DNA of 64,000 nucleotides, taken from contig JBEPUB010000013.1 in assembly GCA_041691775.1 (NCBI GenBank), forward strand, positions 11,913-75,912, written 5' to 3'. This stretch comes from Gemmatimonadota bacterium (lineage in GTDB: Bacteria > Gemmatimonadota > Gemmatimonadetes > Gemmatimonadales > Gemmatimonadaceae). The position numbers and the translations under genes were made by a program. This document shows, one piece after another, positions 22,959 to 32,037 of this stretch; position 1 is the first letter of the stretch; every line of letters starts with the position of its first letter. The notes below the pieces were generated by a model that was not told the origin of the DNA, ran no database searches, and saw only the letters and a program-made list of their open reading frames with translations.

Positions 22959-23405
22959 GCTCGCTCCTCGCTATGGGTTATCGCAATACCCGAGCTTCGC
23001 GTAAAGCGCGCCAAGCGTGCGCATAGGTCGCCTCCGTGACGCCGCCGCATGTGCTGTCGCGTGTGTCGTCGCGTGTGTTGTCGCCGATTCACTCGCCGGC
23101 TGAACGGGAGGGCGTAAGCAAGTAGCGCGGAGCCCAGCTTCTGCTGACCTCCACCAGGGGCTCCGTTTTCAGATCGTTCGCGACGCGGCGGCGGGCCCTG
23201 ATCGCACCTCACCGCCCGGAGACTCGCGCCGAACCTGAAGATCCAGAGGATGAGTATGATCCAGGCAACATCGCCGCCTCAGCGTGTAAGAGTTGCGCGC
23301 AGCTGGTTAGCGCGTATCGCTTGTCGCGTCACAATTTCGGCTCTTCAGGGATTTTGTGGGCACTTCTCATCTTCACGATGAATCTCCGAGAGGATATGTA
23401 CCTAT

Positions 23406-23678
23406 GTCGTCATCCCGCCGAAGGCCGGGAACCACGGACGACGATCGCGGAATGCGTCTCGCGTTTGCAGGTGTAGATGGACTTTACGCGAGACGAGTTC
23501 GCGGCTGTGCCAATGACTTTACGCACCGTTCTTTAGGGCGCGCGCACGTAAGGACCAGCACGCGACGCCACGGTAACTGCAATGGCTACTACTACATCCA
23601 GCGAGCGCTTACACCTGCAAATGTGGACTCAAACTCAACGGCTCGTCCATGGATCCCAGCCTTCGGCGGGATGACGAC
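23406..23678. mobile_element. palindromic MITE-like / structured intergenic element, copy 1 (273 bp)
   Basis: 35-bp terminal inverted repeats gtcgtcatcccgccgaaggccgggaaccacggacga (23406-23440) and its reverse complement (23643-23678), with 3 mismatches. Internal blocks are shared with the element at 31727-32037. Confidence 0.6.
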
Positions 23679-23894
23679 TTTCAAAGAGGCCGCCGTTCTC
23701 CAAGCGAAGTAGTCCCGCCAGCTCCAGTCCAGGCGGTGCGCTCGCTGCTGATGATCCCGCTGTGCACCCGAATTATGGACGGACGGACGGGCAGGCGACG
23801 CCGTCTCGAGCCGCCGGGCGGGTACATGTGCGCTGCCAGCCGGCCTGTAATCAGAATGAATGCGACATGTGAATACAGCGTCGATTGCGTATGA

Positions 23895-31644: not shown

Positions 31645-31689
31645 CCGGATGCGCAGGTCCGGCGCGCGACCTGGAGTGGTTCCCCGCTG

Positions 31690-31720
31690 TTGAGAGTCGT
31701 CATCCCGCCGAAGGCCGGGA
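31690..31720. repeat. solo extra copy of the element arm core (ttgagaGtcgtcatcccgccgaaggccggga)
   Basis: It duplicates 31741-31771 with 1 mismatch, 51 bp upstream of it. Confidence 0.8.
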
Positions 31721-31726
31721 GTTGAT

Positions 31727-32037
31727 ACGCACGGAGATCGTTGAGACTCGTCATCCCGCCGAAGGCCGGGAACCATGGACGAGGACTTAGGCGTACACCT
31801 CCGCCATGCAGGTGTGGTCAGGACCAGAGGCGCGACGAGTCCACGGCTGTTGAAAACGACATGCACAGATCTTCACCGTTGCTTCAGAAGATGAGCGGTG
31901 CGCGGTGCACGGTAACCGAACCGACCCGTCGCTTTGCCGAGTTCTCCGACGCCTGCAAGCCGGGAATTCACTCGTACATCCTCGTCCATGGTTCCCGGCC
32001 TTCGGCGGGATGACGAGTCTCAACGATCTCCGTGCGT
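31727..32037. mobile_element. palindromic MITE-like / structured intergenic element, copy 2 (311 bp)
   Basis: Perfect 58-bp inverted repeat: acgcacggagatcgttgagactcgtcatcccgccgaaggccgggaaccatggacgagg (31727-31784) and its exact reverse complement (31980-32037), around a 195-bp core. It lies between two convergent genes. Confidence 0.7.

What the first reader, a model, noticed from the sequence alone, without database searches (positions are those of the whole stretch)
23406..23678. Second family member shares five collinear internal blocks: conserved structure, not just conserved ends
The 273-bp element at 23406-23678 has 35-bp arms homologous to the 31727 element, with 3 arm mismatches.

Its interior shares ordered blocks with that copy:
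- TGCAGGTGT: 23466 / 31807
- GCG(A)GACGAGTyCrCGGCTGT: 23488 / 31830
- CACCGTT: 23524 / 31874
- CACGGTAAC: 23569 / 31908
- C(A/G)CCTGCAA: 23612 / 31950

Sequence between the blocks has diverged. The first and last blocks are mutually complementary (GCAGGTG / CACCTGC in copy 1, GCAGGTG / CGCCTGC in copy 2).

Conserved islands with long-range pairing are what a structured RNA (or the functional core of a non-autonomous element) would show. I cannot match it to a known RNA family by eye.
Basis: seen in the sequence. Interest (0 to 1): 0.6.

Follow-up and report, generated by a model that had tools for sequence, protein, structure and literature searches.

The report
Gene-less hairpin repeat of Ssn nuclease
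The 273-bp element is a gene-less copy of a small repeat unit whose full version carries a tiny single-strand DNA nuclease gene (Ssn, described in 2025) between the same hairpin ends; it is an insertion-type repeat of a known system, not a new structured RNA.

Summary
Window 23406-23678 has 36-nt inverted arms. It shares ordered internal blocks with the copy at 31747-32017 and with about 30 other copies in this genome and four congeners (uncultured Gemmatimonadaceae).

The arms match the published Ssn-related motif (SRM) of Chenal et al. 2025. The same arms flank the genome's only intact ssn gene (a single-domain GIY-YIG nuclease, G000 C17:56477-56968) and an internally deleted copy (C5:263-648).

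- Blocks 1 and 5 (TTGCAGGnGT / ACnCCTGCAAAC) are the subterminal part of the roughly 75-nt ends shared with ssn-bearing units.
- Blocks 2-4 belong to a core found only in the gene-less elements. It has no significant similarity to ssn.

I found no Rfam match. RNAalifold supports only the arm-arm stem. Covariation in the interior is not significant.

Four loci that carry an element here, including the second window copy, lack it in congeners. The elements are therefore gained or lost as units. I found no target duplication and no near-identical dispersed copies. Arms are about 94% identical between copies; interiors are at most 81%.

Verdict: a new member of a known kind, namely SRM-bounded, NIME/REPIN-like, probably Ssn-dependent repeats. 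Mobilisation by Ssn is inferred, not shown.

The parts
23406..23678 (.). Gene-less SRM-bounded element W1 (273 bp)
   Evidence: Inverted arms. It aligns end to end with C1:211941-212219 of the same genome and with three copies in congener G017.
23406..23441 (+). Left arm. It contains the Ssn-related motif CGTCATCCCGCCGAAGGCCGGGAACCAC (23408-23435): a GTCAT tag plus a short hairpin with a GAAG loop.
   Evidence: Matches the published SRM degenerate motif. Conservation starts sharply 2 nt before GTCAT and runs to GGACGA.
23643..23678 (-). Right arm. The SRM is on the minus strand: CGTCATCCCGCCGAAGGCTGGGATCCAT (23649-23676).
23463..23475 (.). Subterminal block 1 (TTTGCAGGTGTAG), inverted partner of block 5
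   Evidence: Pairwise identity is 0.80 among copies in this genome. The block is also present about 45 nt upstream of the ssn start in the G000, G010 and G019 units.
23609..23621 (.). Subterminal block 5 (TACACCTGCAAAT)
   Evidence: In the G010 ssn unit the same block encodes the C-terminal TPAN followed by the stop codon.
23487..23600 (.). Central core specific to the gene-less elements. It holds blocks 2-4: GACGAGT mini-palindrome, GGCwGTGmCAAT, ACGCACsGTTC and CACGGyAACTGCAATGG.
   Evidence: Shared with other gene-less copies in G000 and G017. There is no significant match to ssn units (nhmmer best E=0.46; alignment against shuffles z=2.3).
31747..32017 (.). Second family member W2 (271 bp core). 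Its inverted repeat extends outward to 31727-32037.
   Evidence: The 468-bp intergenic region that holds it is only 6-40 bp in five congeners.
31689..31720 (+). Extra solo arm (truncated SRM), 51 bp upstream of W2's left arm
   Evidence: The same 51-bp stutter of a terminal arm is seen at G000 C12:5164-5337.

Best explanation
W1 is a non-coding member of the Ssn/SRM repeat system.

What is shown:
- Each 36-nt arm is an Ssn-related motif: an oriented GTCAT tag followed by a short GC hairpin. This is the kind of site that single-domain GIY-YIG Ssn nucleases bind and cut in single-stranded DNA.
- The full unit in this genome is arm, about 85 nt, a 96-codon ssn gene, about 50 nt, then an inverted arm.
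- W1 and about 16 other 235-280-bp copies keep roughly the outer 75-80 nt of both ends (arm, variable stretch, GCAGGnGT / ACnCCTGCAAAC block). Where the full unit has the gene, they carry a 80-130-nt core found only in the gene-less copies.
- Elements are gained or lost as blocks in intergenic DNA.
- Arms stay almost invariant while interiors drift.

What is inferred:
- The arms are kept by selection because they are the working parts, namely the sites recognised in trans by the single-copy Ssn.
- Because the two arms are inverted, Ssn would nick just outside each end, once on each strand.
- That nicking would drive copying or recombination of the element, in the manner of REPIN/RAYT or Neisseria NIME arrays.
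- The conserved inner blocks are cis sequence motifs of the element ends and core. They are not base-pairing partners of an RNA.
For: - The arm matches the SRM degenerate motif of Chenal et al. 2025 (PMC11893778).
- There are 182 SRM hits in the genome against about 23 expected, in three variants.
- 65 arm cores were found, about 17 of them as inverted pairs 235-280 bp apart.
- Identical arms flank the only intact ssn gene (Pfam GIY-YIG, E=4e-13) and an internally deleted, stop-containing copy.
- In the genus, every ssn gene whose flanks could be read is flanked by inverted SRMs of its own variant. Four of six genomes with at least 5 arms have ssn, against one intact copy in the other 16.
- Small GIY-YIG genes in seven other lineages (several phyla) are also bracketed by GTCAT-hairpin inverted repeats.
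- nhmmer with a model of ssn units matches both ends of every short element (E 1e-8 to 1e-15) but not the core.
- Sites without the element in congeners: W2, C1:211941, C6:2426 and C3:88958.
- Arms are 0.94 identical between copies, against at most 0.81 for interiors of dispersed copies.
- The three Y1-transposase genes in the genome have no SRM within 3 kb.
Against: - No movement was observed, and nothing here tests the activity of the G000 Ssn.
- No target-site duplication was found.
- No near-identical dispersed copies were found, so there is no sign of recent transposition. Tandem and segmental duplication explain the most similar copies.
- GIY-YIG nucleases hydrolyse DNA and are not known to catalyse strand transfer.
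- The origin and role of the core (blocks 2-4) remain unexplained.
- At W1's own locus synteny is broken in the nearest relatives, so no site lacking the element could be shown there.
- The assembly breaks at these repeats, so copy numbers are lower bounds.
Confidence: 0.75

Rival explanations
1. Structured non-coding RNA gene. The conserved islands and the long-range complementarity would reflect an RNA fold.
For: Both window copies fold far better than shuffles (z=-7.9 and -14.4). A local hairpin in the 235-bp subfamily shows a few compensatory changes (columns 71-77 / 88-94).
Against: - The low folding energy follows from the inverted repeat.
- No Rfam hit at E<=1.
- The consensus fold of 27 copies keeps only the arm stem.
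- Interior covariation is not significant, and the covariation term is unfavourable (+2.75).
- No promoter-like or terminator-like sites were found.
- The arms are DNA motifs of a nuclease specific for single-stranded DNA. Chenal et al. report no binding to RNA.
Confidence: 0.07
2. Degraded ssn pseudogene. The interior blocks would be the remains of the nuclease coding sequence after internal deletions.
For: - C5:263-648 is such an intermediate: an 84-nt in-frame deletion plus a stop codon.
- In W1 one frame reads FAGV..ARRV..RGCANDFTHR...IQRA..TPAN, collinear with the Ssn sequence YAGVTSDVVKRVWQHREGCADGFTSR...IQRA...TPAN (tblastn E=0.037).
Against: - The match is not significant: nhmmer E=0.46; local alignment z=2.3, with 5 of 200 shuffles as good, among about 56 tests.
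- The family consensus of the same block is less like ssn than W1 is.
- Other members have stops and frameshifts in that frame.
- W2 scores best on the opposite strand.
- The 118-aa ORF spanning W1 has no Pfam match.
Confidence: 0.12
3. Classical MITE derived from an insertion sequence and moved by a DDE or Y1 transposase.
For: Terminal inverted repeats, small size, intergenic positions and presence/absence between species. The genome encodes three Y1_Tnp homologues.
Against: - No target duplication was seen.
- No transposase gene lies between or beside such arms. The Y1 genes have no SRM within 3 kb.
- The only coding partner of the arms is ssn.
- Dispersed copies are at most 81% identical in the interior.
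Confidence: 0.04

Closest known systems
Ssn nucleases and their NTS/SRM hairpin repeats (Chenal et al., Nat Commun 2025, PMC11893778)
   Same: The arm fits the published SRM degenerate motif. It is multi-copy, oriented, hairpin-forming and flanks a single-domain GIY-YIG gene of about 96 residues in inverted orientation. A second repeat in this genome (CGTCATTCCCGCGAAAGCGGGAATCC) is almost the Neisseria NTS itself.
   Different: The paper describes 20-50-nt motifs. In the sections I read (Introduction, part of the Results, Discussion, SRM methods) and in term searches, it does not describe 235-280-bp gene-less units with shared subterminal blocks and a conserved core, it shows no sites lacking the repeat, and it does not mention Gemmatimonadota. 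Nuclease activity was not tested here.
Neisserial intergenic mosaic elements (NIMEs: dRS3 - RS element - dRS3; Bentley et al. 2007, PMC1797815)
   Same: Short inverted hairpin repeats flank families of 50-214-bp repeat segments, clustered in intergenic arrays whose content varies between relatives. This genome has such arrays (C17:1-1400, C6:111550-111900).
   Different: W1's arms do not fit ATTCCCN8GGGAAT. The arms are longer (36 nt). The interior is itself a long imperfect palindrome with conserved blocks. In 2007 NIMEs were said not to occur outside Neisseria.
REP / REPIN sequences with a single-copy RAYT (cited from my own knowledge and from the Discussion of PMC11893778)
   Same: Inverted doublets of a hairpin repeat form a longer hairpin. 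They are dispersed in intergenic DNA, and the partner gene is single-copy and flanked by the same repeats.
   Different: The partner here is a GIY-YIG nuclease, not a Y1 (HUH) transposase. The Y1 genes of this genome are not associated with the repeats.
Bacterial MITEs such as Correia elements (CREE)
   Same: About 150-300 bp, terminal inverted repeats, intergenic, gene-less.
   Different: No target duplication, no related transposase, and copies far more divergent inside than at the ends.

Membership tests
SRM repeats of the Ssn system | Sequence fits HGTCWYN(0-2)YYVSBRHN(0-5)WNVSBRGN(0-2)RNCYNB | tested here: met
   Both W1 arms and both W2 arms match the regular expression.
SRM repeats of the Ssn system | Semi-palindrome able to form a hairpin, preceded by a conserved oriented tag | tested here: met
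   TCCCGCC-GAAG-GCCGGGA gives a 7-pair stem with one C-C mismatch, after the GTCAT tag. Genus variants (CCCCGC/GCGGGG, TTCCCGC/GCGGGAA, CCCGGC/GCCGGG) keep the stem through changes on both sides.
SRM repeats of the Ssn system | Many copies, enriched over a shuffled genome | tested here: met
   182 hits against about 23 expected from a first-order Markov model.
SRM repeats of the Ssn system | Flank a single-domain GIY-YIG (cd10448) ssn gene on both sides | tested here: met
   C17:56477-56968: identical arms on both sides of a 96-codon gene, Pfam PF01541 E=4e-13. Assignment to cd10448 itself could not be tested because that library is not available. There was no NCBIfam hit.
SRM repeats of the Ssn system | Bound and cut by the cognate Ssn as single-stranded DNA, on one strand only | not testable with these tools
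   Needs biochemistry.
NIME (dRS3-RS-dRS3) | Flanking 20-bp repeat ATTCCCNNNNNNNNGGGAAT | tested here: not met
   W1's arms read ATCCCGCCGAAGGCCGGGAA. Only the genome's second SRM variant fits dRS3.
NIME (dRS3-RS-dRS3) | Repeat-flanked segments in sequence families, in intergenic arrays that vary between relatives | tested here: met
IS-derived MITE | Target-site duplication | tested here: inconclusive
   No consistent duplication was seen at W1, W2, C1 or C6. An 8-nt TCCCCGCT occurs on both sides of W2, but 16 nt away from the right end.
IS-derived MITE | A full-length IS with the same ends encoding a transposase | tested here: not met
   The only gene between such ends is ssn. The Y1 genes are unlinked.
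REPIN/RAYT | Y1 (HUH) transposase gene flanked by the repeat | tested here: not met
Structured RNA family | Match to a curated family, or significant covariation for a conserved fold | tested here: not met
   Rfam gave none. Covariation is not significant.
Structured RNA family | Discrete transcript | not testable with these tools

The most novel reading that the evidence does not exclude
The gene-less 235-280-bp elements are true non-autonomous transposons, moved in trans by a roughly 96-residue GIY-YIG nuclease that cuts only single-stranded DNA at the hairpin ends. The conserved core (blocks 2-4) is a cis-acting part needed for that movement. This would be a minimal, nuclease-only mode of transposition with its own MITE-like derivatives.
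Probability: 0.25. Interest if true: 0.75.

Novelty: new member of a known kind. Interest (0 to 1): 0.38.

Why it matters
Chenal et al. showed what Ssn does in vitro and in Neisseria transformation. They only raised the idea that SRM-ssn-SRM is, or was, a mobile element.

This genome adds three things that make the idea testable:
- a graded series: an intact unit, an internally deleted unit and gene-less units with the same ends;
- sites in sister species that lack the element;
- a sharp contrast between nearly invariant arms and drifting interiors.

It also shows NIME-like mosaic arrays in Gemmatimonadota, far from Neisseria. For annotation, it explains many contig breaks and spurious ORFs in such MAGs, for example the 118-aa ORF across W1.

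Tried and rejected
- **Rfam:** searched at the gathering threshold over the whole window and at E<=1 on both elements. Nothing found.
- **Consensus folding and pair counting:** only the inverted arms are supported.
- **Core as an ssn remnant:** tested with tblastn, nhmmer and alignment against dinucleotide shuffles. Only a non-significant hint, in W1 alone.
- **Promoter and terminator scan:** nothing found.
- **Element-free site at W1's own locus:** not obtainable. The nearest relatives have the flanking genes on different contigs.
- **RAYT or IS200 partner:** Y1 genes exist but are not linked to the repeats.
- **Literature:** searches for GIY-YIG together with MITE, REP or COG2827 found nothing relevant. 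The Ssn paper was reached through an earlier scan note.
- **NCBIfam:** no named family for the nuclease.
- **PDB:** the only meaningful hit is the UPF0213 GIY-YIG protein 1zg2.

Full report
**Observation**

The element at 23406-23678 has 36-nt inverted arms with 3 mismatches. The 21-nt arm core TCATCCCGCCGAAGGCCGGGA occurs 5 times in the window against 0.02 expected.

In the second copy the inverted repeat runs 89 nt at 87%. The complementarity of the first and last blocks is therefore simply the inner part of a long inverted repeat.

**Family in the genome**

The window is contig C13 of a 3.36-Mb, 29-contig assembly.
- The arm core occurs 65 times with at most 3 mismatches.
- About 17 pairs form inverted doublets 235-280 bp apart.
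- Several contigs end in arms, so copy numbers are lower bounds.
- Arrays also occur: three identical tandem copies at C17:364-1262, and terminal arms repeated with periods of 51 or 56 bp. One of the 51-bp cases is the solo arm at window 31689-31720.

**The coding partner**

Two longer members carry an open reading frame.
- C17:56477-56968 encodes a protein of about 96 residues with a GIY-YIG domain (Pfam PF01541, E=4e-13). The only meaningful PDB relative is the UPF0213 protein 1zg2.
- C5:263-648 is the same gene with an 84-nt internal deletion and a stop codon.
- There is no other copy in the assembly.

**Link to the Ssn system**

An earlier scan note pointed to Chenal et al. 2025 (PMC11893778). 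That paper characterises single-domain GIY-YIG proteins (cd10448) as Ssn, site-specific nucleases for single-stranded DNA. Ssn proteins bind hairpin repeats (NTS, generalised as SRM) and cut just upstream of them. The repeats occur in hundreds of copies and flank ssnA in inverted orientation.

- The W1 and W2 arms match the published degenerate SRM motif.
- So does a second repeat in this genome, CGTCATTCCCGCGAAAGCGGGAATCC.
- The motif has 182 hits in the genome against about 23 expected, in three variants.

**Distribution**

The closest ssn loci come from Gemmatimonadetes / Gemmatimonadaceae MAGs from peat.

- Arms occur in 10 of 22 genomes of the genus, and in none of 19 genomes from other genera of the family and order.
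- The ssn gene is single-copy wherever it is present. It occurs in 4 of the 6 genomes with at least 5 arms. In the other 16 it is intact in one genome and a pseudogene in two.
- Every ssn gene whose flanks could be read lies between inverted SRMs of its own variant.
- In seven distant lineages the small GIY-YIG gene is likewise bracketed by inverted repeats that start GTCAT followed by a hairpin.

**What the five blocks are**

I aligned 31 gene-less copies from five species. They share one direction-specific architecture:
1. arm;
2. about 20 variable nt;
3. TTyGCAGGnGT;
4. a core with GGCwGTkACAA and CACGGyAACTGC;
5. ACnCCTGCrAAC;
6. about 20 variable nt;
7. arm.

Mean pairwise identity among 14 copies in this genome:

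| Region | Identity |
|---|---|
| Arms | 0.94 |
| Blocks 1 and 5 | 0.80 |
| Blocks 2 and 4 | 0.56-0.59 |
| Elsewhere | 0.2-0.5 |

A profile of six ssn-bearing units matches both ends of every short element over about 75-80 nt (E 1e-8 to 1e-15), but not the core. In the G010 unit, block 5 encodes the C-terminal TPAN followed by the stop codon. Block 1 lies about 45 nt upstream of the start codon. Blocks 1 and 5 are therefore the subterminal part of the unit's ends. Blocks 2-4 belong to a core found only in the gene-less elements.

**Is the core a decayed ssn?**

In W1 one frame gives FAGV..ARRV..RGCANDFTHR...IQRA..TPAN, which is collinear with Ssn. The support is weak:
- tblastn E=0.037 in a tiny database;
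- nhmmer E=0.46;
- alignment score z=2.3 against shuffles, among about 56 tests.

The family consensus is less like ssn than W1 is. Other members have stops and frameshifts in that frame. W2 scores best on the other strand. I treat this as unproven. The 118-aa ORF across W1 has no Pfam match.

**Structure tests**

- Both window copies fold far better than shuffles, but that follows from the inverted repeat.
- There are no Rfam matches, even at E<=1.
- RNAalifold on 27 copies keeps only the arm-arm stem. Its compensatory positions are species-specific arm variants that change on both arms together.
- On the subfamily holding W1 and W2 the covariation term is unfavourable.
- With the arms excluded, interior pairing is 85.0% against 82.7% in shuffles (18/500). 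The covariation score is reached by 13/500 shuffles, and the number of pairs changed on both sides by 94/500. None of these is significant by the tool's own calibration.
- The variable base in GCAGGnGT does not covary with its partner.
- A local hairpin in the 235-bp subfamily shows a few compensatory changes. It remains unexplained.

**Gain and loss**

- W2 sits in a 468-bp spacer between convergent ABC-ATPase and pyridine-nucleotide oxidoreductase genes. The same spacer is 6-40 bp in five congeners.
- The C1:211941, C6:2426 and C3:88958 elements are also absent from the orthologous intergenic regions of congeners.
- At two of these sites a congener carries a different SRM-type mini-hairpin (G002 at the C1 locus, G007 at the C6 locus). 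This suggests preferred landing spots or ancient occupancy.
- No consistent target duplication was seen.
- At W1's own locus the nearest relatives have the flanking genes on different contigs. A fragment of about 90 bp of a sequence that is longer in four congeners lies next to W1. The neighbourhood has been rearranged.

**Age of the copies**

Dispersed copies are at most 81% identical in the interior, while arms are 94-100% identical. This is unlike a recent MITE burst. It points to selection on the arms, or to their homogenisation.

**Mechanism**

Shown: the arms are SRMs, they are physically linked to ssn, the ends are shared, and elements are gained or lost as units.

Taken from the literature: Ssn binds the hairpin in single-stranded DNA and cuts a few nt upstream, on one strand only.

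Inferred: with inverted arms, the cuts would fall just outside each end, one per strand. This fits the sharp start of conservation 2 nt before GTCAT. Such nicks could promote copying or recombination of the element, or mark DNA for Ssn-controlled recombination as in Neisseria.

I rate the classification at 0.75 and Ssn-driven mobility at about 0.25-0.4.

**Comparison with known systems and novelty**

The element works like, and by four tested criteria belongs to, the Ssn/SRM repeat system. It resembles NIMEs and REPINs in architecture. It fails their defining sequence feature (dRS3) or partner enzyme (a Y1 transposase).

It is a new member of a known kind. The gene-less composite units, their shared core and the sites lacking the element are not in the parts of the 2025 paper that I read, nor in term searches of it.

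**Limits**

Noticed in passing
G000 C17:1-1400, C6:111550-111900, C5:1-720 (same genome, outside the window): Mosaic arrays interleave the arm with a second SRM variant (GTCATTCCCGCGAAAGCGGGAAT, at least 67 copies, nearly the Neisseria NTS/dRS3). They include elements of about 112-142 bp bounded by one SRM of each type and repeated with a period of 140-142 bp. No second ssn gene is present in the assembly.
   Followed up: partly
window 31689-31739; G000 C12:5164-5337; C17:56937-57240: The terminal arm plus its adjacent flank is duplicated in tandem. The period is exactly 51 bp at two unrelated loci with different flank sequences, and 56 bp at a third. This looks like a stutter at element ends.
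   Followed up: no
window 23790-23875: A stretch of about 90 bp is 81-86% identical to part of a longer sequence conserved in congeners G009, G005, G021 and G002. Its flanks do not align. It looks like a gene fragment left beside W1, at a point where synteny with G002 breaks.
   Followed up: partly
window 23356-23712 (+): A 118-aa ORF runs through the whole of W1. It has no Pfam match and is probably spurious. Repeats of this kind will generate false hypothetical proteins in annotations.
   Followed up: partly
L100 (G002:C2, orthologue of the G000 C1:211941 site) and L107 (G007:C126, orthologue of the C6:2426 site): The same intergenic spots that hold a 240-280-bp element in G000 hold different, shorter SRM-type hairpin elements in other species.
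   Followed up: partly
G000 C2:24385-24708, C2:347955-348170, C2:358074-358406: Three Y1_Tnp (IS200/RAYT-type) homologues, one with an internal stop codon. None has an SRM within 3 kb.
   Followed up: partly
G000 C17:1-77: A tRNA-like sequence sits at the contig start, immediately next to the large SRM array. I judged this by eye and did not run a tRNA scan.
   Followed up: no
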